DNA from: Thermodesulfobacteriota bacterium
GTDB lineage: Bacteria; Desulfobacterota; QYQD01
DNA length: 28,259 nt
NCBI GenBank assembly: GCA_030017815.1
Contig: JASEGX010000002.1
Coordinates: 1 to 28,259 of the forward strand
Direction of reading: 5' to 3'
Part shown: positions 12,042 to 25,785 of the stretch, one piece after another
How the letters are laid out: each line of letters opens with the position of its first letter
How positions within the stretch are numbered: position 1 is the stretch's first letter
Notes under the pieces: generated by a model
Told to the model about the DNA's origin: nothing
Seen by the model: the letters and a program-made list of their open reading frames with translations, nothing else
Databases searched by the model: none
Position numbers and translations under genes: made by a program

Positions 12042-13235
12042 ATGATCGGTATATCTAAACTTTATTGCGGTACGGTGGAGCCGTCTGACGCCTTGCGTTA
12101 TGGCAGACACTCCGGGAAGTTGCCCTCGCACCTTCTCCAGTTTTCGGCAGACAAAAAGCCGGTGGTGGTCTGGAATGCCACCCGGCGTTGTAACCTAAAG
12201 TGTGTGCATTGTTATGCCCAGGCGGACAGTGTGGGCGCACCGGATGAACTCTCCACGGCCGAAGGGAAAAAACTGATCGATGATCTAAGCCAGTTCGGCA
12301 GTCCGGTCCTTCTTTTCTCCGGCGGCGAGCCTTTTATGCGTCCGGATCTGCCTGAGCTTGCGGCTTACGCCGTGGAAAAAGGCATGCGGGCCGTAGTTTC
12401 TACAAACGGCACGCTTATCGGCAAAGACATGGCCAAGGTATTGAAGAAGATCGGCCTCTCTTATGTGGGTATAAGTCTTGATGGTATGGAAGAGGTCAAT
12501 GACCATTTTCGTGGGGTTAAGGGGGCCTTTGCCGGGGCCATGAGGGGTATTAGAAATTGTCGGGAAGCTGGTATTAAGGTAGGGTTAAGGTTTACCATAA
12601 ATAAACTTAATGCCGCCGAGATACCGGCCATTTTTGACCTGTTAGAACGGGAAGAAGTCCCGCGGATCTGTTTTTATCATCTGGTTTATGCGGGCCGGGG
12701 CAGTAAGCTGGTCGAAGAAGATCTTGCTCACGAAGAAACCCGGCGGGTAGTGGATATTATCATCGATCGTACTGCCGACTTGCACCGTCGAGGTAAGCCC
12801 AAAGAGGTGCTGACGGTGGACAATCATGCCGACGGGCCTTATGTCTATCTGCGTATGGTAAAGGAGAATTCACCCCGGGCTGCCGAGGTCCTGGAATTAC
12901 TTGAAATGAACGAGGGGAATAACTCCGGCCGGGGTATCGGCTGTGTAAGCTGGGACGGGAGCGTCCATGCGGATCAATTCTGGAGGCATTACTCATTTGG
13001 CAATGTCCGCCAACGTCCGTTTAGCGAGATCTGGACGGACTTATCCAATCCGCTTATGGCGGCCCTTAAGAATAAGAAGGCCCATGTCAATGGCCGCTGT
13101 GCCCGGTGTAAGTGGCTGGATATCTGCGCCGGTAATTTCCGGGTAAGGGCTGAGGCCGTCACCGGGGATATCTGGGCGCCGGACCCGGCTTGTTATCTGA
13201 CGGATAAAGAAATCGGGATTGCCGAGGAGGCTTAG
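12042..13235 (+). CDS. ahbC: Radical SAM 12,18-didecarboxysiroheme deacetylase (Fe-coproporphyrin III synthase)
   Basis: [23 protein letters not shown]-terminus, [13 protein letters not shown] cysteines, position upstream of hemB. Confidence 0.92.
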
Positions 13236-13237
13236 AG

Positions 13238-14212
13238 ATGCTGTTTCCGGATTATCGTCCGCGCCGCATGCGGCAGAATGAAAATTTCCGCGCCCTGATT
13301 CGGGAGACACAGCTTGCGCCTGATCAGCTTGTTTATCCCCTTTTTGTCGTGCTGGGGAAAAAGGTCAGGAAAGAGATCCCTTCTATGCCCGGGTGTTTTC
13401 AACTTTCTCTGGATCAGTTGAAGGCTGAGATAAAAGAGATAAAGGACACCGGGCTCAGATCTGTTCTCCTTTTTGGCATCCCGGAAAAGAAGGACGAGAT
13501 AGCCTCTCGGGCCTATGCCAAAGATGGCATTGTGCAAAGGGCGATAGCCGAGATAAAGTCATCTGATAAAGACCTTCTGGTTATTACGGATGTCTGTCTC
13601 TGTGAATACATGAGTCACGGCCACTGTGGATTTGTCTCCGGGGGCAAGATCGAAAATGATGCGACACTGGAGATACTGGGCAGGGTAGCCCTTTCCCATG
13701 CCCGGGCCGGGGCGGACATGGTTGCCCCTTCGGATATGATGGACGGCCGGGTGGCTGAGATCCGTGAGACCCTGGACGAAGATGGTTTTGAACACACACC
13801 CATCATGTCTTACGCGGTCAAGTACGCCTCCGGTTTTTACGGGCCTTTCCGCGAGGCGGCGGAGTGTGCCCCCCAGTTCGGCGACCGGCGTTCGTATCAG
13901 ATGGACCCCGCCAACAGCCGTGAGGCCCTGCGCGAGGCCACCCTGGACATGGAGGAAGGGGCTGACATCCTCATGGTTAAACCGGCCCTGCCTTATCTGG
14001 ATATCATCTCTCGCTTGCGGGAGGAATTTGACCATCCCATTGCCGCTTATCAGGTCAGCGGCGAGTATGCCATGGTAAAGGCGGCGGCCAAGATGGGCTG
14101 GCTGGATGAAGAGCGGGTCATGATGGAATGCCTTCTGAGTATCCGGAGGGCCGGAGCAGATATTATCATCACTTATTATGCCAAGGAGGCAGCGAGGTTA
14201 TTGCGCAGATGA
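13238..14212 (+). CDS. hemB: Porphobilinogen synthase (Zn type)
   Basis: [19 protein letters not shown] Zn motif, [26 protein letters not shown]. Confidence 0.97.
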
Positions 14213-15351
14213 AACCGAATCATCCTCATGGCCATCCTTCACATCCTTCCCATGCCCATAGTGGTCCTCCACAGGGGCAGGACGGACCGACGCTTCGCCT
14301 GGTAGCCTGGGAATTGACAAGGAACTGTAACCTTTCCTGTGTTCACTGTCGGGCATCCGCAACCCGTGGACCTTATGAAAACGAACTATCCACGGAAGAG
14401 TGCAAGAAGATTATCGACGACATCGCTGCCCATGCCCAGCCGGTCATGATCATGACCGGTGGTGAGCCTCTCCTGCGCGAGGATATCTTTGAACTGGCGC
14501 GCTATGGTACAGACAAAGGCCTGCGGATGGTGATGGCCACCAACGGCACCCTCATCACCCCGGAAGTGGCCCGGAAAATGGTAGAGGCCGGAGTAAAGAG
14601 GATTAGTATAAGCATTGACGGGGCCACAGCAGAAAGCCATGACAAATTCCGTCAGGTAGAAGGGGCCTTTAAGGGCGCGCTTCAAGGCATAGAAGAGGCG
14701 AAGCAGGCCGGTTTAGAGTTTCAGATTAATACCACGATTACTGAGACGAACCTCCATGAACTCCCGGCTATACAGGAGCTCACCGTATCACTCGGGGCGG
14801 TGGCTCACCACATCTTCCTCCTGGTCCCTACCGGACGCGGCAAAGATTTGGCCGCTCAGGCCCTTTCTGCCGGGGAATACGAACAAACCCTGAACTGGTT
14901 TTATGACCAAAGGGATAAAGTCCCCCTACACCTCAAGGCCACCTGTGCCCCTCACTATTATCGGATATTAAGACAGCGGGCCAAGGCTGAGGGGAAAGAG
15001 ATAACCTTCCAGTCCCACGGGCTGGATGCCGTGACCCGGGGATGCCTGGGCGGTGTCGGCTTCTGTTTTGTCTCACATCGGGGAGATGTCCAGCCTTGCG
15101 GTTATTTAGAGATAAACTGCGGCTCGGTGCGCGAGATGCCCCTTTCCCGTATCTGGCGTGAATCTCCTGTCTTTCTTAACTTGCGTAATCCCAAGATGTA
15201 CAAAGGCAAGTGCGGTATGTGTGAATATCATCGTTTCTGTGGCGGGTGCCGGGCGCGGGCCCATGAGATGTCCGGTGATTATCTGGCCGAGGAACCTCTC
15301 TGTACATATCAACCTTTAAAAATGCGGGCGCCGGCGAAGGAAAGTCATTAG
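14209..15351 (+). CDS. ahbD: Radical SAM AdoMet-dependent heme b synthase
   Basis: [48 protein letters not shown]; ATG 14209 overlaps the hemB stop (ATGA). Confidence 0.92.
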
Positions 15352-15378
15352 CTTTCAGCTATCAGTCATCAGTCACTA
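15351..15378 (-). repeat. Four degenerate heptamers of the AGCTGA(A/T) family, reverse orientation
   Basis: GCTTTCA GCTATCA GTCATCA GTCACTA immediately after the ahbD stop. Confidence 0.55.
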
Positions 15379-15429
15379 ACCGTCGGGTGTCAATCGCTCA
15401 AGTCCGTTTTGAATTTTGGACTTTGACCG

Positions 15430-15888
15430 TTGGGATTTAACAAAATGGATGCTACAGACCGGGCCATTTTAAACGAGATACAATCCCATTTTCCGATTGA
15501 ATCTCGCCCCTATGCGACTATAGGAGAGCGGCTCCAACTCACGGAGACAGAAGTTTTAGACCGGATTAGGCGTTTGCAGGATAGGGGTATAATACGCCGT
15601 CTGGGGGCGAATTTTGATTCCCGCCGCCTGGGTTATATGACTACTCTCTGCGGGGCCAAGGTCCCACCGGAAAAATTAGAGGAATTTGTGGAGGTCGTAA
15701 ACTCTTATCAGGGAGTGACCCATAACTACTTACGCAGACACGCCTTCAATGTCTGGTTTACCTTTATCGCCGGGTCGGAAGAGGCCATCGAGAGGCAACT
15801 GCAGGAGATAACTGAAAAGACCGGCGTTAAGGTCTACAACTTTCCCGCCATACGTTTATTCAAGATCAGGGCTGAGTTTAAGGTCTGA
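15430..15888 (+). CDS. ahbA: Siroheme decarboxylase alpha subunit (Lrp/AsnC-like)
   Basis: DRAILNEIQSHFP, IIRRLGANFDSRRLG, GVTHNYLR, NVWFTFIA; context next to ahbC/ahbD. The start may be the ATG five codons downstream. Confidence 0.88.
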   Translation: MGFNKMDATDRAILNEIQSHFPIESRPYATIGERLQLTETEVLDRIRRLQDRGIIRRLGANFDSRRLGYMTTLCGAKVPPEKLEEFVEVVNSYQGVTHNYLRRHAFNVWFTFIAGSEEAIERQLQEITEKTGVKVYNFPAIRLFKIRAEFKV

Positions 15889-17862: not shown

Positions 17863-19113
17863 ATTAGCACACCCTCATGCAATAAGTGCGGGACGTGCAT
17901 GAGTGTCTGTCCCGTTTACCAGGCAACAGGGCTGGAGGCCTATTCCCCCCGGGGCAAATTAAGCCTTATCGAGGCCAACCGGGAAGGCCGGTTACCGTTT
18001 TCCGACCGCTTTGAAGAATTGCTCTCCTACTGTCTTCTTTGCGGGGCCTGTACGAATGCCTGTCCCGCCGGGGTAAATGCGGATGTCTCCATACAGGAAG
18101 CGCGGGCAAGGTTGGTCGAAGAGAAGGGACTCCCGGCGGGGAAGCGATACTTTTTTCATTACCTTCTGGATTCTGAGCGCCTTTTGCCCTTTATATTAAA
18201 AAGCGGTTCCCTGATCCAGGGCCTCCTTTGCAAAAGAATCCCGGAAGACAGCGGCCTTCATTGTCGATTTCCGATCCCTCTGTTGGCCGGAAGGTCATGG
18301 CTGCCGCCATTGGCGCCGACCTTTTTTCTGGATAATGACCTGCCCCAGGAAACAAGCGCCCCGGCTAAGGCAGCTTACTTTACAGGATGCATCACAAATT
18401 ATCTCTTTCCTAACGTAGGTAAGGCTGTCCTGAATATTTTTGACTTTCTCGGAGAGCCTGTATGGGCGCCCAAGAAGCAGAAATGCTGTGGGTTCCCGGC
18501 CTTTTGTGCCGGGGATGAAGAGACGGCGCGTTCCCTGGCACGGGCCAATATCTCGGCATTCCTGGATGGCCGGTTCGATTACATCGTTACGACCTGTGCC
18601 TCCTGCAGCTCCCATCTAAGATTTAATTATCCCAGGCTTCTGGCCGCCGACCCGGTCTTTGCAGAAAAAGCGGCGGAATTTTCGGCAAAAGTGATGGATA
18701 TATCGGTTTTTTTATCCCATAACAAGGGATTTCCCCGGCAGTTATCGGATCTCACGCCGAAAACCGGCAGCCTGAAGGTGACGTATCATGATCCCTGCCA
18801 TTTTCGGTTTAGAGAAAAGATATTCGAGGAGCCGCGTCTGCTCATCAAGTCGCTGCCCGGAGTTGATTTTCGCGAACCGGCCGGCGGAGCTGCGTGTTGC
18901 GGACATGGCGGGTTGTTTAATATAACCCATTATGACCTGTCCCAGGAGATTCTTGATAAAAGGATGGCTGTGTTAAGAGACACGGGAGCAGATATCTTAG
19001 TTACCAGTTGCATGGGCTGTCTGTTACAGTGGAAGGAGGGTCTGGTTAGGCATGGGCTTAATGCACAGGCCATGCATCTGGTAGAGTTATTCGATATTTT
19101 TTTGTCAAAATGA
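17863..19113 (+). CDS. GlcF/GlpC-like (Fe-S)-binding oxidoreductase subunit, 2x[4Fe-4S] plus two CCG domains
   Basis: CNKCGTCMSVCP (starts upstream of ATG 17899), CLLCGACTNACP, CCGFP, YHDPCH, CCGHGG. Start placed at ATT 17863 after AGGAGG. Confidence 0.85.
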   Translation: MSTPSCNKCGTCMSVCPVYQATGLEAYSPRGKLSLIEANREGRLPFSDRFEELLSYCLLCGACTNACPAGVNADVSIQEARARLVEEKGLPAGKRYFFHYLLDSERLLPFILKSGSLIQGLLCKRIPEDSGLHCRFPIPLLAGRSWLPPLAPTFFLDNDLPQETSAPAKAAYFTGCITNYLFPNVGKAVLNIFDFLGEPVWAPKKQKCCGFPAFCAGDEETARSLARANISAFLDGRFDYIVTTCASCSSHLRFNYPRLLAADPVFAEKAAEFSAKVMDISVFLSHNKGFPRQLSDLTPKTGSLKVTYHDPCHFRFREKIFEEPRLLIKSLPGVDFREPAGGAACCGHGGLFNITHYDLSQEILDKRMAVLRDTGADILVTSCMGCLLQWKEGLVRHGLNAQAMHLVELFDIFLSK

Positions 19114-19142
19114 GCCGCCTATTTCGGGGATAGACATTTTCC

Positions 19143-19171
19143 TTGACATGCAATCTCTATTTTGTTACACA
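19143..19171 (+). promoter_or_regulatory. Putative sigma70 promoter for the cytochrome c3 gene
   Basis: TTGACA, 17 nt spacer, TG-T-TACACA. Confidence 0.4.
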
Positions 19172-19279
19172 CAAGCTGAACTGTGATTCAGTGGGTGACT
19201 GTGAAAGATAACCACAGAGTGCACAGAAAAAGCTAAAAGCGTGAAACCGGAAACTGTAGTTTTCGGATAACAATAGAGA

Positions 19280-19403
19280 CTCTTGCAAAAGTCGTCACAC
19301 CGGTGAAAACCGGTGTCCAGAAGTACCTTGATTCGCTTGAAATTACTGGATTCCGGCTTTCGCCGGAATGACAAGAACGCCATTCACAAGACTTTTGCAA
19401 GAG
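19280..19403. mobile_element. 124-bp MITE-like element, CTCTTGCAAAA family, copy 3
   Basis: Perfect 14-bp inverted ends CTCTTGCAAAAGTC / GACTTTTGCAAGAG; internal GTCACACCGGTGAAAACCGGTGTCCAG and CTGGATTCCGGCTTTCGCCGGAATGAC. Confidence 0.8.
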
Positions 19404-19455
19404 GTTCTGTAGTTAATATTTTAGCAATAAGTTATTGTTAGTCAGGAGGAAAGAG

Positions 19456-19836
19456 ATGAAAAACAGGGGCATTCTGCTGATGATAGTCATGGCTGTTTTT
19501 ATAATAGCTACTTGTGCTTACGCCCAGGAAGAAGTGCTGAAACTGGAGCATAAGGCCTTTGAAAAACGACAGAGGCCGGGCGTGACATTCCAGCATGCCC
19601 AACACTTTGCTACCATTGAGTGTACGGCGTGCCATCATTTTTATGTAAACGGACAGAACGTCTGGGATGAGTCGCGGGAAACGAATTGTGCGGCCTGCCA
19701 TGGCTTGGAGGCCGAAGGTAAGAAAATGGGCCTTATGAAGGCGTTTCACGAGAACTGCGTGGGTTGTCACCGGGAGACCAAACCGGCAGCAGGCAAGTCA
19801 CTCCCGGTGATGTGTGGCGAATGCCACAAAAAATAA
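19456..19836 (+). CDS. Periplasmic tetraheme cytochrome c3 (class III)
   Basis: Sec signal peptide (AYA|QEE), four CxxCH (CTACH, CAACH, CVGCH, CGECH), VTFQHAQH and KAFH distal His motifs; AGGAGG RBS. Confidence 0.92.
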   Translation: MKNRGILLMIVMAVFIIATCAYAQEEVLKLEHKAFEKRQRPGVTFQHAQHFATIECTACHHFYVNGQNVWDESRETNCAACHGLEAEGKKMGLMKAFHENCVGCHRETKPAAGKSLPVMCGECHKK

Positions 19837-19856
19837 ATATGCAGATGTAGTTTTTT

Positions 19857-19889
19857 AAAACGGGAAGTTTATAAGCTTCCCGTTTTTTT
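19857..19889 (+). terminator. Intrinsic terminator after the cytochrome gene
   Basis: AAAACGGGAAG..CTTCCCGTTTTTTT stem-loop with a U7 tail. Confidence 0.8.
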
Positions 19890-19906
19890 GTGGCCCCTTT
19901 TTTATC

Positions 19907-19935
19907 TTGACAAAGGGTGCGTTTAGGTATATCCA
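19907..19935 (+). promoter_or_regulatory. Possible internal promoter for rnfC
   Basis: Perfect TTGACA at 19907; only a weak -10 (GGTATATCC region). Confidence 0.3.
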
Positions 19936-19971
19936 ATCCCGTAATTTGCTGGAAGGAGAGAGTGAACCAAT

Positions 19972-21267
19972 ATGAGCCCAGGTAGCTTTTCTGGCGGTAT
20001 TTGCTTGTCTATTTCAGACGCAAGCGCAAACAAACCCTTCGAACGTATCATCCCCTCCGGTGTTGTAACTATCCCTCTCAGGCAGGATCTCGGCGGAATT
20101 TGCAATGCCAAGGTCAAAAAGGGTGATGAGGTCAAGGTCGGACAGGTAATCGGTGAAAGCGCCGGTCCGGAAGGCGCCTCTATCCATGCCACGGTTTCCG
20201 GTAAAGTAGCCGATGTAATAAAGGCCTATCCCCATTTTTCAGGGGGATTCGTCCCGGCTGTGCTCATAGAATCCGATGGCAAGGATGAGTGGGTGGGACT
20301 GGAGGGCAGCGCAGACCCAATGGCCGCCATACAACAGGCGGGAATTATTGATTTTGATATAAAGCCGGTACCGCTTGCAGCCAAGCTCAACGAGGCAAAG
20401 TCTCGCCGGGCTAACGCCCTTATTGTGAATGCCATGGACATAGAGCCGGTACTCTCGAGCCGGTCACGTCTGTTGTCTGAAAGGGTTCAGGAAGTGGCCT
20501 GCGGGATAGACACTATAAAAAGCATAATCGGCGCAGCATCGGTGTATGTTGCCGTCGATAAAGGTGCGTCTCAGGCTATGTCCGCTGTCGGTTCCGCCTG
20601 CGGTGGCGCGGCTACCGTAGTGGGGTTGAACCCTAAGTATCCCCAGGCTGTTGACCTCTTACTGGTAAAGTCGATACTGGGTAAGGAGGTGCCCTGTACA
20701 GAGGCCTATTGTGTGGCCGATATAGGCGCCCTGGTCCTGAGTGTCGAGACAGTGGCGGCGGTGGGCCGGGCTATGGCGGATAAAAAGCCGGTGGTGGACA
20801 GGTTCATAACCATTACCGGCGCCAACGGGACCGGCGCCAAAAATGTCCAGGTAAGGATAGGCACGACGATTAAGGAAGTTCTGGGGCATTGTGGAATTTC
20901 CGTGGAAGGGATGGGCAAGGTTATAGCCGGCGGCCCCATGATGGGCACGGCCATCGCCAATACCGAGACGCCGGTGACCAAAGAGGTGCTGGGTATCTTT
21001 GTCCAGCATGAGAAAGAGATTACCGGGTTCGACTCGGCTGTCTGTATCAAATGCGGGTTATGTATCGAGGTGTGTCCGGTAGGCCTGATGCCGTTCCTTA
21101 TTTCCGGCTTTTCGGAAAAAGGGGTATATGCCAAGGCTGCGGCCAACGATATATTTACATGCTTTGAATGTGGATGCTGTGTCTACGTGTGCCCGGTAAT
21201 GATACCAATGGTGCACTGGATAAAATTTGGCAAGGCACAAATTATGGCGCAAAGGAGTAGCGAATGA
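19972..21267 (+). CDS. rnfC: RnfC-like subunit with degenerate FMN/NAD motifs
   Basis: FSGGI, VKKGDEVKVGQVIG..IHATVSGKV, KYPQ, GGPMMG, CIKCGLCIEVCP and CFECGCCVYVCP. Confidence 0.9.
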   Translation: MSPGSFSGGICLSISDASANKPFERIIPSGVVTIPLRQDLGGICNAKVKKGDEVKVGQVIGESAGPEGASIHATVSGKVADVIKAYPHFSGGFVPAVLIESDGKDEWVGLEGSADPMAAIQQAGIIDFDIKPVPLAAKLNEAKSRRANALIVNAMDIEPVLSSRSRLLSERVQEVACGIDTIKSIIGAASVYVAVDKGASQAMSAVGSACGGAATVVGLNPKYPQAVDLLLVKSILGKEVPCTEAYCVADIGALVLSVETVAAVGRAMADKKPVVDRFITITGANGTGAKNVQVRIGTTIKEVLGHCGISVEGMGKVIAGGPMMGTAIANTETPVTKEVLGIFVQHEKEITGFDSAVCIKCGLCIEVCPVGLMPFLISGFSEKGVYAKAAANDIFTCFECGCCVYVCPVMIPMVHWIKFGKAQIMAQRSSE

Positions 21268-22232
21268 AAGCCCCGGAACTTGTCGTATCTGCTACGCCGC
21301 ATATCCATAGCGGCAACTCCGTTCAAAAGATGATGCTGAACATAATCATCGCCCTGATCCCGGCGATAGCTGCGGGGGTATATTTTTATGGTATGGGCGC
21401 GGTGCGGGTTGTCGCTGTCTCAGTGCTCTCAGCCGTGGCCTGGCAGGCTATCTTACAAAAGATGATGGGGAGGAAGGTTACCATCAATGACCTGACCGCT
21501 GTGGTAAGTGGTCTCGTCTTGGCTGCCATCCTTTCGCCCACGCTGCCGTGGTGGATGATCGTGATCGCTACCTTGATTATGATCCTTCTTGGGAAAGAGA
21601 TTTACGGCGGGCTGGGCTGTAACCCGTTTAACGGTGTCTTGGTGGCTTACGTGGCATTAAGGTTGTCTTATCCGGAGGCCATGATTGCCTGGACGCCGCC
21701 GGCCGGTGATATAATGACCGAGCTGCCCCCCCTCCAGGTCTTGAGGGATGAAGGGGTCGGGGTTATCTGGGAATACTTTACTTTGAAAGACCTGCTCATT
21801 GGTAAGGTAGCCGGTACCGCAGGTGAAGGGTGCAAGATCGCTCTTCTGATAGGAGGTCTTTTCCTCCTCTTGAGGCGTAACTTTTCCTGGCATATTCCGG
21901 TCAGCTTTCTGGCAGGTATCGCAATCCTCTCAGGGATTCTGTGGCTGGCTGATCCAGAGAAATATGCCAGTCCGGTCTTTCATCTCCTGGTTGGCGGTAG
22001 TTTCCTGGCGGCCTTTTTTCTGGCTACCGATTCCACTACCTCACCGGTTACACCAATTGCTATGGTACTATATGGATTGATAGCCGGAATGCTTACGGTG
22101 GTTATACGGGCCTGGGCCCAATGGGAGGATGGGGCCTACTTTGCGGTCCTTATGATCAGTACATTAACTCCGCTTTTAGATATGATCAAACCAAGAGTCT
22201 ATGGGAGGGTGAAGGCCAGTGCAAGTTCGTGA
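21264..22232 (+). CDS. rnfD: RnfD subunit, FMN-attachment Thr apparently absent
   Basis: SATPHIH, GKEIYGGLGCNPFN, AAFFLATDSTTSP; hydrophobic, about 10 TM. Confidence 0.92.
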   Translation: MKAPELVVSATPHIHSGNSVQKMMLNIIIALIPAIAAGVYFYGMGAVRVVAVSVLSAVAWQAILQKMMGRKVTINDLTAVVSGLVLAAILSPTLPWWMIVIATLIMILLGKEIYGGLGCNPFNGVLVAYVALRLSYPEAMIAWTPPAGDIMTELPPLQVLRDEGVGVIWEYFTLKDLLIGKVAGTAGEGCKIALLIGGLFLLLRRNFSWHIPVSFLAGIAILSGILWLADPEKYASPVFHLLVGGSFLAAFFLATDSTTSPVTPIAMVLYGLIAGMLTVVIRAWAQWEDGAYFAVLMISTLTPLLDMIKPRVYGRVKASASS

Positions 22233-22806
22233 AATCATTAAGATGATTGTGGTTTTGACGCTCATTGCCGCTGTCTGCGGAGGGGGACTGTCGCTTGTCA
22301 AACTAGCTACAGCGGAACAAATTGCCTATCAGCAGATAAAATTCATCAAGGAGCCTGCCTTGAAGAAGGTGCTCACCGGTTATGACAATGACCCCGTCAC
22401 AGACCGGAAGGACATCGTAACCGGCAAGGACAAGAAGGGTAAGGACGTAGTAACCACCTTCTTTTTTGCCAAAAAAGGTGGTCAGGTTATCACCGTTGCC
22501 TTTGAAGCCAGCGCTACCGGATTTCATGGCGATATCGGCGTAATGATGGCCGTTAACCCTGAGATTGACAAGCTGGATGGAATAGCCATTACCTCCCAGT
22601 CCGAGACGCCGGGTGTGGGCACCAGGGTAGCGGATGACCCATCCTTCTGCGCCCAGTTCAAGGACAAGTCCTTAACGGCTAATTTCAGCCTTGGGGGCGA
22701 GGTTCAGGGGCTGAGCGGGGCTACGGTATCCTCGGCCGGTGTAAGCAACGCGGTAAAGGCTGGTGTGGAGACTTACAAGAAATATAAATCCCAGTTGGGC
22801 GTATAA
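22219..22806 (+). CDS. rnfG: RnfG subunit (covalent FMN)
   Basis: N-terminal TM, GFHGDIGVMMAV, ETPGVG, LSGATVSS FMN motif. Confidence 0.92.
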   Translation: MQVREIIKMIVVLTLIAAVCGGGLSLVKLATAEQIAYQQIKFIKEPALKKVLTGYDNDPVTDRKDIVTGKDKKGKDVVTTFFFAKKGGQVITVAFEASATGFHGDIGVMMAVNPEIDKLDGIAITSQSETPGVGTRVADDPSFCAQFKDKSLTANFSLGGEVQGLSGATVSSAGVSNAVKAGVETYKKYKSQLGV

Positions 22807-22823
22807 AATTGAGGAGGTTTGTA

Positions 22824-23429
22824 ATGGCGCGCATTGTCAGTGAATTCACCAAGGGCCTCTGGAAGGAGATCCCTCCCTTCCGTTTCGTCCTCGGCCTGTG
22901 TTCGGCTCTGGCTGTGACTACGGACGTGGCCAATGGTCTAGGTCTGGGGGGCGGGGTCATTTTTGTGACCACCATGGGGAACGTCTTTGTCTCCATGCTG
23001 CGCAAGATTATACCGGATAAGGTGAGGATAGCGGTCTTTATTGCCATCATTGCCAGCGCGGTCATCATAGTGGAGCTGGTGATGCAGGCCTATTTCTATC
23101 CGCTTTTCCTGGTGCTCGGTATCTGGATACCCCTTATCGTAGTTAACTGAGTGCCTCTGGGACGGGCGGAGGCCTTCGCCCGCAAAGAGCCGGTCGGGCT
23201 CTCTTTAGCTGATGGATTAGGAATGGGGTTAGGATTTACCATATCATTGGTTGTGGTATCGACCATTCGGGAGATACTGGGTAAGGGTTCCTGGTTCGGG
23301 ATTCCGGTTATGCCGGTGGGTTATCCGGGCATGCCGTACCTTCTTAAGCCGCCGGGGGCCTTTGCCTTGTTGGGCCTGCTGCTCGGCATTATGAACTTTA
23401 TTTCCTTAAAGCTGGAAGCCAAGAAGTAG
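22824..23429 (+). CDS. rnfE: RnfE subunit, 201 aa with in-frame TGA at codon 109 (predicted selenocysteine)
   Basis: ORFs 22809-23150 and 23151-23429 are in frame and join as IPLIVVN-[TGA]-VPLGRAEAFA; LGLCSALAVTT, DGLGMGLGFT, PPGAF; GAGGAGG RBS before ATG 22824. Confidence 0.88.
23151..23190 (+). ncRNA. Candidate bacterial SECIS element (cis-acting mRNA hairpin)
   Basis: 7-bp stem GGGCGGA/TTCGCCC (23164-23181) with GGCC loop; loop starts 20 nt after the UGA and begins with G; possible lower stem CTCT/AGAG. Confidence 0.7.
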
Positions 23430-23450
23430 GAAGAAGGGGGAAGAGAGATT

Positions 23451-24029
23451 ATGCAACAAGACTGGTTCATGTTTATCCTGTCGGCTATTATCGTTAACAA
23501 CATCCTCCTGATAAGGTTCCTGGGAAACTGTCCCTTCCTGGGGGTTACCACGGCCATGGACAGCGCCCTCGGCATGTCCGCGGCCTGTATTTTTGTGAAT
23601 GTTCTTTCCGGCGTTCTCTGCTGGATATTTCAGAAGGCGGTACTGGATACCCTGGGTCTGGAATACCTGCAGACGCTGGCCTTTATTCTGATCATTGCCG
23701 GCCTGGTCCAGTTCGTGGAGATGGTGGTTCAGAAGGTATCACCGGCGCTTTACCGGGCCCTGGGTATCTACCTGCCGCTTATAACCACCAACTGCATGAT
23801 CTTTGGCGTGGCCGTGTTAAACATCCGGGAGGATCATGATTTTATACATACAGTTGTTTATTCTCTGGCCACCGCCCTTGGGTTTAGTCTGGCTATGGTG
23901 ATCATGGCCGGTATCCGGGAAAGGATGCTCATTGCCAGGATACCCAAGCTTCTGGATGGGGTACCACTGGGTTTAATCACGGCCGGCATGATAGGTCTTA
24001 CCTTTTATGCCTTGGCCGGCATATCTTAA
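23451..24029 (+). CDS. rnfA: RnfA subunit
   Basis: NNILLIRFLGNCPFLG, ALGIYLPLITTNCMIFG, MAGIRER; both cluster cysteines present. Confidence 0.95.
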   Translation: MQQDWFMFILSAIIVNNILLIRFLGNCPFLGVTTAMDSALGMSAACIFVNVLSGVLCWIFQKAVLDTLGLEYLQTLAFILIIAGLVQFVEMVVQKVSPALYRALGIYLPLITTNCMIFGVAVLNIREDHDFIHTVVYSLATALGFSLAMVIMAGIRERMLIARIPKLLDGVPLGLITAGMIGLTFYALAGIS

Positions 24030-24053
24030 ATATGGACGGCAGGTGAGGTTTAT

Positions 24054-24860
24054 ATGGGACCGATAATCACAGCAGTGGCGGCTATGGGGGCCTTAGGATT
24101 GGGGCTGAGCGTTGTGCTTGGTGTGGCCAGTAAGGTTTTTTACGTCTATGTTGACCCGCGCATTACCCAAGTAGCCGACGTGCTGCCGGGCGCCAATTGT
24201 GGCGGCTGCGGCTACGCCGGTTGTAGCGACTGTGCGGCGGCTATGGTGGAAGGCAAAGCGCCGGTTAACGCCTGCAAGGCTGGCGGGGCCTCGGTGGCCC
24301 AGGCAGTAGCCGGTGTGCTGGGTGTCTCGGCCGTGGCGGCAGAGCGCGAGGTGGCCAGGATCTTCTGTAAAGGTGACAATACCAGGGCCGAAAGAAAGTT
24401 CCAATACATGGGTATTAATGATTGCCGGGCTGCCATGCTGGTCTCCAGCGGTGACAAATCGTGTGGTTACGGGTGCCTGGGGCTTGGCACCTGCGTAGCC
24501 AATTGTCCGTTTGGGGCCCTTAGCATGGGTGAAGATGGCCTGCCCAGGGTAGATGATGAAAAATGTACGGCTTGCGGGACATGTGTTAAGGTTTGCCCGC
24601 GGCATATTCCCCGGGTGATCCCAGTATCGCAGAAAGCGGCCAGCCTGTGCAGCTCGCATGATGTTGGTAAGCTGGTCAAGGAGATCTGTGAGGCCGGCTG
24701 TCTGGGATGCGGCTTGTGTAAAAAGGCGTGTCCGGAAAAGGCGATTGAGGTGGTGAAGTTTCTTTCCGTTGTAGATACTGCCAAGTGCAATGGTTGCGGG
24801 AAGTGCTTTGAGAAATGCCCGACCGGCATTATGCAGAGCTTGGTTTTCACTGTAGTATAA
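24054..24860 (+). CDS. rnfB: RnfB subunit (polyferredoxin)
   Basis: LPGANCGGCGYAGC, GCLGLGTCVANCPF, CTACGTCVKVCP, CLGCGLCKKACP, CNGCGKCFEKCP. Confidence 0.95.
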   Translation: MGPIITAVAAMGALGLGLSVVLGVASKVFYVYVDPRITQVADVLPGANCGGCGYAGCSDCAAAMVEGKAPVNACKAGGASVAQAVAGVLGVSAVAAEREVARIFCKGDNTRAERKFQYMGINDCRAAMLVSSGDKSCGYGCLGLGTCVANCPFGALSMGEDGLPRVDDEKCTACGTCVKVCPRHIPRVIPVSQKAASLCSSHDVGKLVKEICEAGCLGCGLCKKACPEKAIEVVKFLSVVDTAKCNGCGKCFEKCPTGIMQSLVFTVV

Positions 24861-24871
24861 GGAGGCGTTGA

Positions 24872-25348
24872 ATGTCTCAAAAGATATTGATAGCTATGGA
24901 TGAGTCTGAGAATTCGATGAAGGCGGTGCGGTATGTGGCTGACACCGTGAACCCAAAGGCCGTAGAGGTAACCCTGTTCAGTGTGCTTCCGGAGGCTCCC
25001 GGCACTGGCCTGGAAAAGGAACCCTCGCTGCATCCCGTATTTGCCAGTAAGATGCTGGAGTTAAAGGGGCTGACGGAAGAGAAGCGTAAGATAATGGAAT
25101 CCGTTACGGCTTCGGCCAGGAAAATTCTGGAGAAAGCAGGGATCCCGGGCGATAAAATAAGCATTAATATCCAGGTAAAGAAGGTCGGTATAGCCAGGGA
25201 CATTATGTTTGAGGCCCAGGAAGGAAAGTATAATGCCATAGTTGTCGGGCGAAGGGGTGTTTCTGCAATAAAGGAATTTATGTTCGGTAGCATTTCGAAC
25301 AAGGTGGTAAGCTTTGCACGAAACTGTACGGTCTGGGTTGTGGATTGA
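24872..25348 (+). CDS. Universal stress protein (single domain)
   Basis: KILIAMDESENS, IVVGRRGVSAIKEFMFGSISNKVV. Confidence 0.9.
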   Translation: MSQKILIAMDESENSMKAVRYVADTVNPKAVEVTLFSVLPEAPGTGLEKEPSLHPVFASKMLELKGLTEEKRKIMESVTASARKILEKAGIPGDKISINIQVKKVGIARDIMFEAQEGKYNAIVVGRRGVSAIKEFMFGSISNKVVSFARNCTVWVVD

Positions 25349-25350
25349 GG

Positions 25351-25785
25351 ATGGCCCATATCCGCGAAGAAGAAGGGGAAGTAATTGCCGTTGAAGGCAA
25401 CCAGGCTAAGGTTAGGATCAGACGCAGCCCGGCCTGTGACAGTTGTTCAAGCAGCAGCAGTTGTGGTTTACTTGGTAAAGGTGAGATGGTGCTAACTGCA
25501 TTAAATCCAATAGGGGCTTCGGAAGGGCAAAAGGTGGACGTTTCGTTCAAGGTTGAGGGAGGGGTCAAGGCCTCTTTTATTCTGTACCTAATTCCCGTGG
25601 TTGGCCTGGTAGCAGGGGCATTAATCGGCTATAGCTTGCATTTATTTGGTGATAAGGAGATTTCAGCGGCCGTCTTTAGTCTGTTGTTTGTGGCGCTTAC
25701 TTTTCTTGGCATCAAATATTATGCGCACATCAGATATGCCAAGGATCAATCTTACATCCCAAAGATTACAAAGGTAGTGGCTTAA
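25351..25785 (+). CDS. rseC: RseC/MucC family membrane protein
   Basis: EGEVIAV..AKV, CDSCSSSSSCG, GQKVDV, ILYLIP, two C-terminal TM helices. Confidence 0.85.
   Translation: MAHIREEEGEVIAVEGNQAKVRIRRSPACDSCSSSSSCGLLGKGEMVLTALNPIGASEGQKVDVSFKVEGGVKASFILYLIPVVGLVAGALIGYSLHLFGDKEISAAVFSLLFVALTFLGIKYYAHIRYAKDQSYIPKITKVVA

What the first reader, a model, noticed from the sequence alone, without database searches (positions are those of the whole stretch)
19456..24860. Rewired 'half-Rnf': possible ferredoxin-to-periplasmic cytochrome c3 conduit instead of ferredoxin:NAD+ oxidoreductase
Seen: the cofactor sites of the RnfB -> RnfA/E -> RnfG half are intact or upgraded (all RnfB Cys motifs, the AE cluster with Sec, RnfG SGAT). 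The return half RnfD -> RnfC -> NAD has lost both flavin signatures. A tetraheme cytochrome c3 gene lies directly upstream. Established: in canonical Rnf, electrons pass from RnfB through the AE cluster to RnfG-FMN, RnfD-FMN and riboflavin, then RnfC Fe-S/FMN and NAD+. Cytochrome-preceded rnf clusters occur in sulfate reducers, and Methanosarcina Rnf works with a multiheme cytochrome without NAD. Inference: periplasmic RnfG-FMN exchanges electrons with cytochrome c3, coupling the periplasmic cytochrome pool (H2/formate) to cytoplasmic ferredoxin. RnfC/D would then be a scaffold or serve another acceptor. This is the best candidate for an undescribed system.
Basis: inference. Interest (0 to 1): 0.88.

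Follow-up and report, generated by a model that had tools for sequence, protein, structure and literature searches.

The report
Sulfate-reducer Rnf pump lacking NAD site
This is the sulfate-reducer version of the Rnf membrane redox pump, which has lost the pockets that normally pass electrons to NAD+ and sits next to a small periplasmic cytochrome; it probably links ferredoxin to cytochromes, but the type is already partly described and is widespread.

Summary
The window encodes cytochrome c3, then rnfCDGEAB, then usp and rseC. RnfC has lost the whole NuoF-like FMN/NADH pocket but keeps both [4Fe-4S] motifs. In RnfD the FMN-linking Thr is Pro155, and pocket Arg130 and Ser284 are Tyr. RnfG keeps SGAT. 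RnfE has an in-frame TGA at a cluster Cys in a selenocysteine-competent genome. No second rnf locus was found (genome 90% complete).

It is not a one-off. On an RnfD tree, 56 of 58 loci with this RnfC form one clade (support 99). The clade includes the decaheme-led Desulfovibrio-type operon and the "Rnf2/Tol2-type". The altered RnfC and the idea of a cytochrome link are published, and this scan has reported the same thing in at least 17 other genomes.

A ferredoxin-to-periplasmic-cytochrome route is the best reading but remains unproven:
- Only 18 of 49 clade loci have an upstream cytochrome, against 0 of 42 canonical loci.
- Here a terminator-like hairpin and a promoter-like element separate c3 from rnfC.
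- RnfC's Fe-S clusters and RnfD's riboflavin/Na+ residues are kept, so RnfC and RnfD are probably not mere scaffolds.
- The complex prediction was uninformative.

Verdict: a new member of a known, biochemically untested kind.

The parts
19456..19836 (+). Periplasmic tetraheme cytochrome c3, TmcA-like (126 aa; signal peptide, 103-aa mature part)
   Evidence: Pfam Cytochrom_CIII 55 bits. NCBIfam best hit is TmcA at 109.1 bits, cut-off 114. 4 CxxCH and 9 His. Conserved upstream of rnfC in L086, L087 and L088. dN/dS about 0.1. The closest relative is a paralog in the same genome (39% identity), not the Rnf2-linked cytochromes.
19857..19886 (+). Terminator-like hairpin with a T-run, between c3 and rnfC
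   Evidence: Fold -17.8 kcal/mol, z = -3.24. Conserved in L086 and L087, with a compensatory A-U to G-C change in L087; absent in L088.
19907..19935 (+). Promoter-like element (TTGACA ... TATATC) 44 nt before the rnfC start
   Evidence: Nearly invariant in the window, L086, L087 and L088. Function is inferred only.
19972..21267 (+). RnfC variant: FMN/NADH pocket replaced (residues 124-135 and 153-159, nt 20341-20376 and 20428-20448); two [4Fe-4S] motifs kept (C358-C368, C397-C407)
   Evidence: TIGR01945 rnfC 339.8 bits passes; RsxC equivalog 294.8 fails its cut-off of 345. The AlphaFold model has pLDDT about 90 over residues 21-340 and TM 0.75-0.77 to 8ahx_C, 9eri_C and 7zc6_C.
21264..22232 (+). 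RnfD variant: FMN-linking Thr is Pro155 (21726-21728); Arg130 is Tyr129; Ser284 is Tyr292; Asn123, Gly245 and Asp256 (Na+/riboflavin) are kept
   Evidence: TIGR01946 279.9 bits passes.
22219..22806 (+). RnfG with an intact flavinylation motif, S166-G-A-T169 (22714-22725)
   Evidence: Best NCBIfam model is RnfG_DVU2794 at 198.6 bits, cut-off 205.
22824..23429 (+). RnfE with in-frame TGA (23148-23150) at the second cluster-ligand Cys (LIVVN-U); probable selenocysteine
   Evidence: The TGA is kept in L086, L087 and L088. Sec machinery is present in the genome.
23163..23182 (+). SECIS-like 8-bp hairpin, loop GGCC, starting 12 nt after the TGA
   Evidence: Same stem and register in all four Sec loci (one loop base differs in L088), at -13.6 kcal/mol. 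Cys homologs that encode the same peptide give -3.6 to -12.6. The z-score of the larger fold is not significant.
23451..24029 (+). RnfA with both cluster Cys (GNCPF, TTNCM)
   Evidence: TIGR01943 241 bits passes.
24054..24860 (+). Small RnfB (268 aa, 25 Cys) with no NAD(P)H module
   Evidence: The Rnf2/Tol2-type loci have an RnfB of about 700 aa instead.
24872..25785 (+). usp and rseC/mucC genes, conserved downstream partners of this Rnf subclade
   Evidence: Pfam. Synteny in L005-L014 and L086-L088.

Best explanation
The locus encodes a sulfate-reducer-type Rnf complex. It belongs to the same clade as the DVU2792-2797 operon of Desulfovibrio vulgaris, in a sub-lineage with a small RnfB.

Proposed path:
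- Reduced ferredoxin delivers electrons to the RnfB Fe-S chain.
- They cross the membrane through the RnfA/RnfE cluster, here probably with one selenocysteine ligand.
- They reach the covalently bound FMN of RnfG on the periplasmic face, coupled to Na+ or H+ movement through RnfD.
- RnfD has no anchor or pocket for its own FMN, and RnfC has no FMN/NADH pocket. The electrons therefore cannot end on NAD+ at the usual site.
- The most likely exit, or entry when the pump runs backwards on the ion gradient, is the periplasmic cytochrome c3 pool. That pool includes the TmcA-like tetraheme c3 encoded just upstream.
- The complex would then be a reversible, ion-coupled ferredoxin:cytochrome c3 oxidoreductase.

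Shown: the cofactor-site anatomy, its clade-wide conservation and selection, the absence of a second rnf locus from this 90%-complete genome, and the restriction of adjacent cytochrome genes to this clade.

Inferred: the RnfG-to-cytochrome step, the direction of flow and the ion.

Unexplained: RnfC keeps two [4Fe-4S] clusters and RnfD keeps its riboflavin/Na+ residues. This suggests a second, cytoplasmic one-electron port with an unknown partner.
For: Loss of the NAD-side sites:
- RnfC pocket dismantled: 18 canonical-invariant columns are replaced while the Fe-S cysteines are kept.
- RnfD at the three FMN-pocket positions, clade-wide: Thr153 is T in 42 of 45 canonical loci and 8 of 56 variants; Arg130 is R in 45 of 45 canonical and W/Y/L in 56 of 56 variants; Ser284 becomes Y, F or P.

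Intact side:
- RnfG SGAT is kept in all loci.
- ApbE lies next to the cluster in the close relative G152; the window's contig ends just there.

Clade and selection:
- One monophyletic clade on the RnfD tree, support 99.
- dN/dS 0.04-0.15.
- The RnfC fold is retained, TM 0.77.

Genome context:
- Only one rnf/nqr-type locus in G000, G001 and G002.
- No NAD(P)H module on RnfB.
- G000 has dsrAB, three further c3-family genes and [NiFe]/[NiFeSe] hydrogenases.

Cytochrome association:
- Upstream multihaem cytochromes of at least three unrelated kinds occur in 18 of 49 variant loci and 0 of 42 canonical loci. The kinds are a decaheme, a membrane-anchored tetraheme and a soluble TmcA-like tetraheme.

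Literature:
- Fd:NAD+ vesicle assays with D. alaskensis Rnf were unsuccessful, and a cytochrome link has been proposed (PMC4841214).
- Tol2-type RnfC needs an acceptor other than NAD (PMC5109826).
- M. acetivorans RnfG is proposed to donate to cytochrome c (PMC4023990).
Against: - No adjacent cytochrome in 31 of 49 clade loci, including the nearest Desulfobacterales and Desulfonatronovibrio relatives.
- The window's c3 is separated from rnfC by a terminator-like hairpin and a promoter-like element. It looks like a recent paralog recruitment.
- dhcA mutants of D. alaskensis had almost no fitness defect, whereas rnf mutants did (PMC4215793).
- RnfC's two [4Fe-4S] motifs and the RnfD residues Asn124, Gly237 and Asp248 are retained. 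A pure half-Rnf does not need them.
- A non-covalently bound flavin in RnfD cannot be excluded from sequence alone.
- The RnfG + c3 + 4 heme complex prediction scored 0.00, which is uninformative.
- The 18/49 against 0/42 contrast is not phylogenetically independent: the variant state arose once. The 12 Desulfovibrio-type loci were also picked by hand.
Confidence: 0.5

Rival explanations
1. The U-shaped path is retained and ends on an unknown cytoplasmic acceptor. Electrons return from RnfG through RnfD (riboflavin, a non-covalent flavin, or the Trp/Tyr residues now filling the FMN pocket) to the two [4Fe-4S] clusters of RnfC. RnfC then reduces a protein partner instead of NAD+, for example an HdrD-like CCG protein, DsrC, a flavodoxin or a second ferredoxin. 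The neighbouring cytochrome is incidental or a side branch.
For: - Both CxxCxxCxxxCP motifs are kept in nearly all variant RnfC examined.
- Asp248, Asn124 and Gly237 of RnfD are mostly kept.
- The replaced RnfC pocket is itself conserved in subclade B (GxVDFD...VPL, NxxDxEP).
- A Fer4 plus two-CCG-domain protein lies upstream (17899-19113) and is conserved in L086 and L087.
- PMC5109826 states that an RnfC acceptor other than NAD+ 'has to be identified'.
- Most clade loci have no cytochrome gene.
Against: - The FMN of RnfD bridges RnfG-FMN and riboflavin in solved Rnf structures (PMC9588780). Its anchor and its Arg and Ser contacts are gone in the whole clade.
- No candidate partner gene is conserved across the clade: upstream genes differ in every lineage.
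- The RnfC pocket region is deleted or unalignable in the Desulfovibrio-type members. That fits loss better than a new binding function.
Confidence: 0.27
2. It is still a ferredoxin:NAD(P)+ oxidoreductase, as usually drawn for Desulfovibrio, and binds the nucleotide at a site that sequence motifs do not reveal.
For: - Genetic work on D. alaskensis is interpreted in this way, and rnf is essential where ion pumping is needed (PMC4215793).
- The window's RnfC still passes the broad TIGR01945 rnfC model and keeps the NuoF-like fold.
Against: - Every canonical-invariant residue of the FMN/NADH pocket is replaced.
- All three solved NAD-active Rnfs and all 43 canonical RnfC compared keep them.
- Some clade members add an NAD(P)H-type module of about 430 aa to RnfB. 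That would be redundant if RnfC bound NAD (PMC5109826).
- Fd:NAD+ assays failed (PMC4841214).
Confidence: 0.08
3. It is a decaying or inactive locus: the TGA truncates RnfE and the altered motifs are degeneration.
For: - Gene callers split or skip rnfE.
- The z-score of the larger SECIS fold is not significant.
Against: - dN/dS is 0.04-0.15 for all seven genes.
- The TGA and the hairpin are conserved in four loci at dS up to about 2.
- The Sec machinery is present.
- The motif changes are conserved across a deep clade.
Confidence: 0.02

Closest known systems
DhcA-RnfCDGEAB(F) operon of Desulfovibrionaceae (D. vulgaris DVU2791-2797, D. alaskensis Dde_0580-0587)
   Same: - Same RnfD clade.
- Same loss of the RnfC pocket and the RnfD SGAT motif, with RnfG SGAT kept.
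- Small RnfB in most members.
- A c-type cytochrome gene directly upstream.
- The window's RnfG scores best against the NCBIfam model RnfG_DVU2794.
   Different: - The cytochrome there is a decaheme, co-transcribed with rnf (PMC4841214). Here it is a soluble TmcA-like tetraheme with its own terminator.
- The window lies in the other subclade, B.
- Its RnfC is full length (431 aa) and passes TIGR01945. The Desulfovibrio type is about 400-413 aa and fails it (140.9 bits).
- RnfE has Sec here and Cys there.
- apbE/rnfF is not in the operon here.
Rnf2 / Desulfobacula toluolica Tol2-type Rnf of Desulfobacteraceae (PMC5109826)
   Same: - RnfC lacks the NADH/FMN domain signature, and an acceptor other than NAD is postulated.
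- A small cytochrome of about 15 kDa is encoded in the cluster.
- Same overall clade: L072, L058, L047 and L070.
   Different: - The Tol2-type has an RnfB of about 700 aa with NAD-binding sites. The window's RnfB has 268 aa and no such module.
- The Rnf2 cytochrome is membrane-anchored and only 31% identical over 88 residues.
Canonical Rnf, Na+/H+-translocating ferredoxin:NAD+ oxidoreductase (A. woodii 9eri, C. tetanomorphum 7zc6, A. vinelandii 8ahx)
   Same: Six homologous subunits in the order rnfCDGEAB. Shared features are the RnfB Fe-S chain, the RnfA/E cluster site, RnfG-FMN, the RnfD Na+/riboflavin residues and the RnfC fold with two [4Fe-4S] clusters.
   Different: No FMN/NADH pocket in RnfC. 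No FMN anchor or pocket in RnfD. Sec in RnfE. A cytochrome c3 gene upstream.
Rnf-MmcA of Methanosarcina acetivorans (ferredoxin:methanophenazine via a multihaem cytochrome)
   Same: An Rnf that does not use NAD and is associated with a c-type cytochrome. RnfG is proposed as the donor to the cytochrome (PMC4023990).
   Different: - Archaeal, with a different RnfC/D/G/E/A/B lineage. The NCBIfam *_Methano models score far below their cut-offs.
- MmcA is a membrane-associated multihaem protein that feeds methanophenazine.
- The state of its RnfC and RnfD motifs was not tested here.
TmcA, acidic type II tetraheme cytochrome c3 of the Tmc complex
   Same: Best NCBIfam model for the window's cytochrome, over its full length (109.1 bits). 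TmcA is the periplasmic cytochrome subunit that serves a transmembrane redox complex.
   Different: Just under the cut-off (114). No tmcBCD genes adjacent. The computed pI of the mature part is 7.8, not acidic.

Membership tests
Canonical Rnf (ferredoxin:NAD+ oxidoreductase) | Six subunits RnfC, D, G, E, A, B | tested here: met
   Pfam and NCBIfam hits for all six; the broad rnfC, rnfD, rnfA, rnfB and RsxE-subfamily models pass.
Canonical Rnf (ferredoxin:NAD+ oxidoreductase) | NuoF-like FMN/NADH pocket in RnfC (GxGGAxFP, NxxECEP, YPQGxE) | tested here: not met
   Reads DFDIKPVP, NAMDIEP and YPQAVD. 18 canonical-invariant columns are replaced.
Canonical Rnf (ferredoxin:NAD+ oxidoreductase) | Covalent FMN on the Thr of [ST]xAT in RnfD | tested here: not met
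   The Thr is Pro155, and pocket Arg130 and Ser284 are Tyr.
Canonical Rnf (ferredoxin:NAD+ oxidoreductase) | Covalent-FMN motif SGAT in RnfG | tested here: met
   S166-G-A-T169.
Canonical Rnf (ferredoxin:NAD+ oxidoreductase) | Four Cys ligands of the RnfA/RnfE cluster | tested here: inconclusive
   Three Cys plus TGA at the fourth position. The feature is met only if the TGA is read as selenocysteine.
Canonical Rnf (ferredoxin:NAD+ oxidoreductase) | Ferredoxin:NAD+ activity coupled to ion transport | not testable with these tools
   Needs biochemistry. Vesicle assays failed for D. alaskensis, a clade member (PMC4841214).
Sulfate-reducer-type Rnf clade (DVU2792-type, including Rnf2/Tol2-type) | RnfD falls inside the monophyletic clade | tested here: met
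   A 56-row clade with SH-aLRT 99; the window lies in a 38-row subclade with support 100.
Sulfate-reducer-type Rnf clade (DVU2792-type, including Rnf2/Tol2-type) | RnfC lacks the NADH/FMN signature but keeps 2 x [4Fe-4S] | tested here: met
Sulfate-reducer-type Rnf clade (DVU2792-type, including Rnf2/Tol2-type) | RnfG matches NCBIfam NF045876 (RnfG_DVU2794) above its cut-off | tested here: inconclusive
   It is the best model, but at 198.6 bits against a cut-off of 205. L120 (275), L072 (240) and L058 (229) pass; a canonical RnfG scores 95.
Sulfate-reducer-type Rnf clade (DVU2792-type, including Rnf2/Tol2-type) | Multihaem cytochrome c gene at the head of the cluster | tested here: met
   A tetraheme c3 lies 135 nt upstream and is conserved in L086-L088. 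It is probably a separate transcript.
Rnf2 / Tol2-type specifically | Large RnfB (about 700 aa) with an NAD(P)H-binding module | tested here: not met
   The window's RnfB has 268 aa. L047, L070, L072, L119, L126, L127 and L129 have 698-753 aa.
Methanosarcina Rnf-MmcA | Subunits match the NCBIfam rnfC/D/G/E/A/B_Methano equivalogs | tested here: not met
   Scores of 81-290 bits against cut-offs of 230-650.
TmcA (type II cytochrome c3) | NF045722 above its cut-off, and tmcBCD context | tested here: not met
   109.1 bits against a cut-off of 114. No tmcBCD genes adjacent.
Bacterial selenoprotein (for RnfE) | In-frame UGA at a conserved Cys, a downstream hairpin, and selA, selB and tRNA-Sec in the genome | tested here: met
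   The hairpin is the strongest in the four Sec loci. Decoding itself is not testable here.

The most novel reading that the evidence does not exclude
The whole sulfate-reducer Rnf clade, including the Rnf of the model strains D. vulgaris and D. alaskensis, never reduces NAD+. It is instead an ion-coupled ferredoxin:cytochrome c3 oxidoreductase. That would make it the missing reversible link between the periplasmic H2/formate-fed cytochrome pool and cytoplasmic ferredoxin. In this lineage it would also have a selenium-ligated membrane Fe-S cluster and its own TmcA-like docking cytochrome.
Probability: 0.4. Interest if true: 0.75.

Novelty: new member of a known kind. Interest (0 to 1): 0.45.

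Why it matters
Rnf is drawn as a ferredoxin:NAD+ pump in nearly every energy-conservation scheme for sulfate reducers. It is essential in D. alaskensis for growth on H2, formate and ethanol.

The sequence evidence here and in relatives says the NAD site and one membrane flavin are gone in the entire clade. If the acceptor is the periplasmic cytochrome pool, two things follow. The energy budgets and electron-flow models for sulfate reduction, syntrophy and H2-driven ferredoxin reduction need redrawing. And the long-puzzling cytochrome genes next to rnf get a role.

The point can be tested directly in cultured strains. This window adds a sub-lineage with a small RnfB, so no NAD(P)H module anywhere. 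It also has a soluble TmcA-like c3 and a probable selenocysteine ligand, which makes it a clean case for the argument.

Tried and rejected
- The RnfG (30-195) + mature c3 + 4 heme complex prediction scored 0.00 in three runs. By the tool's own terms this is no evidence either way. FMN could not be added because of the limit on small molecules.
- Searches for RNA runs to test co-transcription of c3 and rnfC listed none. Only DNA metagenomes hold the sequence: sediment, coal, landfill and groundwater.
- The consensus terminator scan missed the hairpin after c3. Reading the sequence and folding it found it.
- My first regex for SGAT in RnfD was too strict and over-counted losses. It was replaced by column counts on a better alignment.
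- I first misread the pairwise alignment as Thr to Leu.
- L016 (Methanosarcinales MAG) was hoped to represent the M. acetivorans Rnf. It fails the *_Methano models, so it says nothing about that enzyme.
- Pereira et al. 2011 (PMC3119410) is not held. Its content is cited only through PMC4841214.
- The upstream CCG protein was considered as a conserved partner of RnfC. It is found only in L086 and L087 and not elsewhere in the clade.
- A conserved upstream partner across the clade was sought. The upstream genes differ in every lineage: ApbE, HycI, a NifB-like protein, an [FeFe] hydrogenase, an MFS transporter.
- No paper was found that reports the RnfD flavin-site loss. A 2025 review calls the membrane cofactors 'strictly conserved' (PMC12174285).

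Full report
**What is there**

The + strand between 19.4 and 25.8 kb carries, in order:
- a 126-aa cytochrome c3 gene (19456-19836)
- rnfC (19972-21267)
- rnfD (21264-22232)
- rnfG (22219-22806)
- rnfE (22824-23429, with an in-frame TGA at 23148-23150)
- rnfA (23451-24029)
- rnfB (24054-24860)
- a universal stress protein gene, an rseC/mucC-family gene, a CitMHS_2 transporter gene and a second usp

All six Rnf subunits match their Pfam families and the broad NCBIfam families. The window is a whole contig of a 2.25-Mb, 278-contig, 90%-complete genome. That genome has dsrAB, three further c3-family genes and [NiFe]/[NiFeSe] hydrogenases. The only RnfD/NqrB-family and RnfA/E-family genes in it are those of this locus.

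**Check of the observation**

RnfC was aligned to the three solved, NAD-active Rnf complexes: A. vinelandii 8ahx, A. woodii 9eri and C. tetanomorphum 7zc6.
- GLGGAxFP reads DFDIKPVP and NGxECEP reads NAMDIEP.
- In a comparison of 43 canonical and 55 variant RnfC, 18 columns that are at least 90% conserved in the canonical set are replaced in the variants. Ten of them are invariant: G127, G130, F133, E156, C157, D164, E196, G226, E228 and N257.
- All eight cysteines of the two [4Fe-4S] motifs are conserved in both sets.
- An AlphaFold model built on 27 clade members is confident over the N-terminal and NuoF-like part (pLDDT about 90). It superposes on the solved RnfC chains with TM 0.75-0.77 at 30-31% identity. 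The fold is kept and the pocket residues are not.

In RnfD the loop D-x-x-T-x-A-T-P-L reads D-I-M-T-E-L-P-P-L. The Thr that carries FMN (Thr153 in 7zc6, PMC9588780) is Pro155. Over 45 canonical and 56 variant RnfD:

| Position (7zc6 numbering) | Canonical | Variant |
|---|---|---|
| Thr153 (FMN link) | T in 42 of 45 | T in 8 of 56 |
| Arg130 (FMN pocket) | R in 45 of 45 | W 45, Y 10, L 1 |
| Ser284 (contacts flavin N5) | S, M, A, T or C | Y, F or P in 49 of 56 |
| Asn124, Gly237, Asp248 (Na+/riboflavin) | invariant | kept in 42-44 of 56, including the window |

Other subunits:
- RnfG keeps S166-G-A-T169.
- RnfA and RnfE keep three of the four cluster ligands as Cys. The fourth is the TGA.
- RnfB has 268 aa and 25 Cys, like canonical RnfB.

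**Selenocysteine**
- The genome has tRNA-Sec, selB and selA.
- The TGA is kept in the three nearest loci found elsewhere: L086, L087 and L088, whose RnfC is 94, 88 and 64% identical.
- An 8-bp hairpin with loop GGCC (GGCU in L088) starts 12 nt after the TGA. Its stem and register are the same in all four loci, at -13.6 kcal/mol.
- Cys-type homologs that encode the same GRAEAFAR peptide give -3.6 to -12.6 kcal/mol.
- The z-score of the larger fold is not significant.
- Reading the TGA as Sec is the most likely interpretation. It is confined to this small sub-lineage.

**How general the variant is**

RnfC database searches:
- A search found 33 clusters at 41-94% identity that all carry the variant motifs GxVDFDxxxVPL and NxxDxEP. 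From the 34th hit on, nearly all hits carry the canonical motifs.
- A profile search added Desulfonatronovibrio sequences, including the cultured D. hydrogenovorans.

Genome loci:
- Variant loci come from Desulfobacterales, Syntrophobacter, Desulfofervidaceae, Desulfonatronovibrio, Desulfohalobiaceae, Desulfarculia and a Leptospirales MAG.
- In a sample of 151 genomes of the order that holds Desulfonatronovibrio, 95 have an RnfC-like gene.
- All 42 loci I examined from that order are variant.

Twelve of these loci are Desulfovibrio-type:
- A 254-292-aa decaheme cytochrome lies directly upstream of rnfC.
- RnfC reads NGLNPEP or NAVPPEP.
- RnfD reads DLVEPLSEL or similar.
- RnfG has SGAT.
- The RnfG of one of them (L120) passes the curated NCBIfam model RnfG_DVU2794 at 275 bits, against a cut-off of 205.

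The window's RnfG also scores best against that model, at 198.6 bits, while a canonical RnfG scores 95.

On a maximum-likelihood RnfD tree of 102 loci, 56 of the 58 loci with variant RnfC form one clade (SH-aLRT 99). One exception is an ORF-truncation artefact (L048). The other (L059) has a canonical RnfD. The clade has three parts:
- A small basal pair, L010 and L011.
- Subclade A: the decaheme loci, plus loci with a membrane-anchored tetraheme and an RnfB of about 700 aa (the published Rnf2/Tol2-type).
- Subclade B: the window, with small RnfB and the downstream usp-rseC genes.

All seven genes of the window's lineage are under purifying selection, with dN/dS 0.04-0.15.

**The cytochrome**
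- It has a signal peptide (cleavage after AYA), four CxxCH and nine His in the mature part. Its best curated model is the type II c3 TmcA, at 109 bits against a cut-off of 114.
- It is conserved upstream of rnfC in L086-L088. The other members of subclade B have unrelated genes there: ApbE, HycI, a NifB-like protein, an [FeFe] hydrogenase or a transporter.
- Its nearest relative is a paralog in the same genome (39% identity). The Rnf2 cytochromes are further away, at 31% over 88 residues. The association here probably arose separately.
- Across loci with enough upstream sequence, a same-strand multihaem gene within 600 nt of rnfC occurs in 18 of 49 variant loci and 0 of 42 canonical loci. This fits a functional link that was recruited more than once, with decaheme, anchored tetraheme and soluble tetraheme forms.
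- The test is weak. The variant state arose once, and I picked the twelve decaheme loci by hand.
- A strong terminator-like hairpin lies between c3 and rnfC (z = -3.2), with a compensatory base-pair change in L087. A promoter-like element there is nearly invariant in all four loci. The cytochrome is therefore probably transcribed on its own.

**Flavin transferase**

ApbE was not found in this genome. In the close relative that holds L087, it lies convergent to the second usp, just past the point where the window's contig ends. RnfG flavinylation is therefore plausible.

**Mechanism**

In solved Rnf, electrons run in this order (PMC9588780):
1. ferredoxin
2. RnfB
3. the RnfA/E cluster
4. RnfG-FMN
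5. RnfD-FMN
6. riboflavin (7.7 Å from RnfD-FMN)
7. RnfC [4Fe-4S] clusters (11.7 Å from riboflavin)
8. RnfC-FMN
9. NAD+

Here steps 5 and 8 have lost their sites, and RnfB carries no NAD(P)H module. Reduction of NAD+ at the usual place is very unlikely.

Electrons can still reach RnfG-FMN on the periplasmic face. I give it about 0.5.

Two things do not fit a pure half-Rnf. RnfC keeps both clusters in nearly all members examined, and RnfD keeps the riboflavin/Na+ residues. A second, cytoplasmic port with an unknown one-electron partner is the main rival, at about 0.27. The two readings are not mutually exclusive.

**Comparison with what is known**
- The decaheme-rnf operon of Desulfovibrio is well known. 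Its cytochrome has been proposed to carry electrons from hydrogenases to Rnf, and attempts to show Fd:NAD+-driven ion transport in vesicles failed (PMC4841214).
- dhcA mutants showed almost no phenotype while rnf mutants did (PMC4215793).
- For the Tol2-type, the literature says RnfC lacks the NADH and soluble-ligand-binding domains and needs another acceptor. It also says a small cytochrome is encoded in the cluster (PMC5109826).
- In M. acetivorans, RnfG is proposed to donate to cytochrome c, and that complex does not use NAD (PMC4023990).
- I found no paper that reports the loss of the RnfD flavin site. A 2025 review calls the membrane cofactors strictly conserved and does not mention sulfate reducers (PMC12174285).
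- This scan has already reported the same losses in at least 17 other genomes. Its notes gave me the lead to the Rnf2 literature. Sec-RnfE was also noted before, on other DNA.

**Verdict**
- The locus is a new member of a known, biochemically untested type.
- Its own features are a small RnfB, a soluble TmcA-like c3 with its own terminator, and a probable Sec ligand in RnfE.

Noticed in passing
window 17899-19113 (+): A 404-aa protein with a 4Fe-4S dicluster domain and two CCG domains. It resembles HdrD, GlcF, GlpC and the C-terminal half of LdhH. It lies 320 nt upstream of the c3 gene and is conserved there in L086 and L087, but not near other clade loci. It is a possible cytoplasmic redox partner, or just a neighbour.
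   Followed up: partly
window 12042-15888 (+): By synteny with the Pfam-annotated L086, these ORFs are radical SAM/SPASM, ALAD (HemB), radical SAM/SPASM and an AsnC/NirDL-like protein. This looks like a siroheme-dependent (Ahb-type) haem biosynthesis cluster, a few kb upstream of the cytochrome gene.
   Followed up: no
L018:11037-11597 and L043:11488-12087: In two loci with canonical RnfC and RnfD (a Nitrospirae MAG and a Desulfomonile tiedjei MAG), RnfE reads LIVVFAI where all others read LIVVNC. The second cluster-ligand Cys of RnfE is missing without any TGA.
   Followed up: no
L059 (Syntrophaceae MAG), RnfC from 5274, RnfD from 6473: An RnfC without the GGxxFP motif (NGTEFEP) is paired with an RnfD that keeps the canonical SSATPL motif. 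The gene order is different (rnfG-E-A upstream of rnfC-D). This may be an independent, partial loss outside the main clade.
   Followed up: no
window 23160-23187 and homologous rnfE stretches in L004-L046: The codons for the conserved GRAEAFAR peptite just after the ligand Cys are partly self-complementary even in Cys-type rnfE genes (-3.6 to -12.6 kcal/mol). This may have predisposed the site to evolve a SECIS hairpin.
   Followed up: partly
L132 (G152:C98:26235-27059), next to L087: ApbE lies convergent to the second usp gene in the close relative. The window's contig ends exactly where it would be, which explains why no ApbE was found in this genome.
   Followed up: partly
G000:C57:8-562 (L133): A [NiFe] hydrogenase large-subunit fragment with an in-frame TGA near the C terminus ([NiFeSe] type). 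It is another sign that this organism uses selenocysteine.
   Followed up: no
L017, L106, L113 and related Desulfohalobiaceae loci: Eight of 56 variant RnfD still have Thr at the FMN-link position (for example NPEATATPM, DPATTSTPM), although Arg130 is replaced. The clade may contain intermediate states.
   Followed up: no
window 19114-19434: The gap between the CCG-protein gene and c3 holds short palindromes, for example CACCGGTGAAAACCGGTG near 19297.
   Followed up: no
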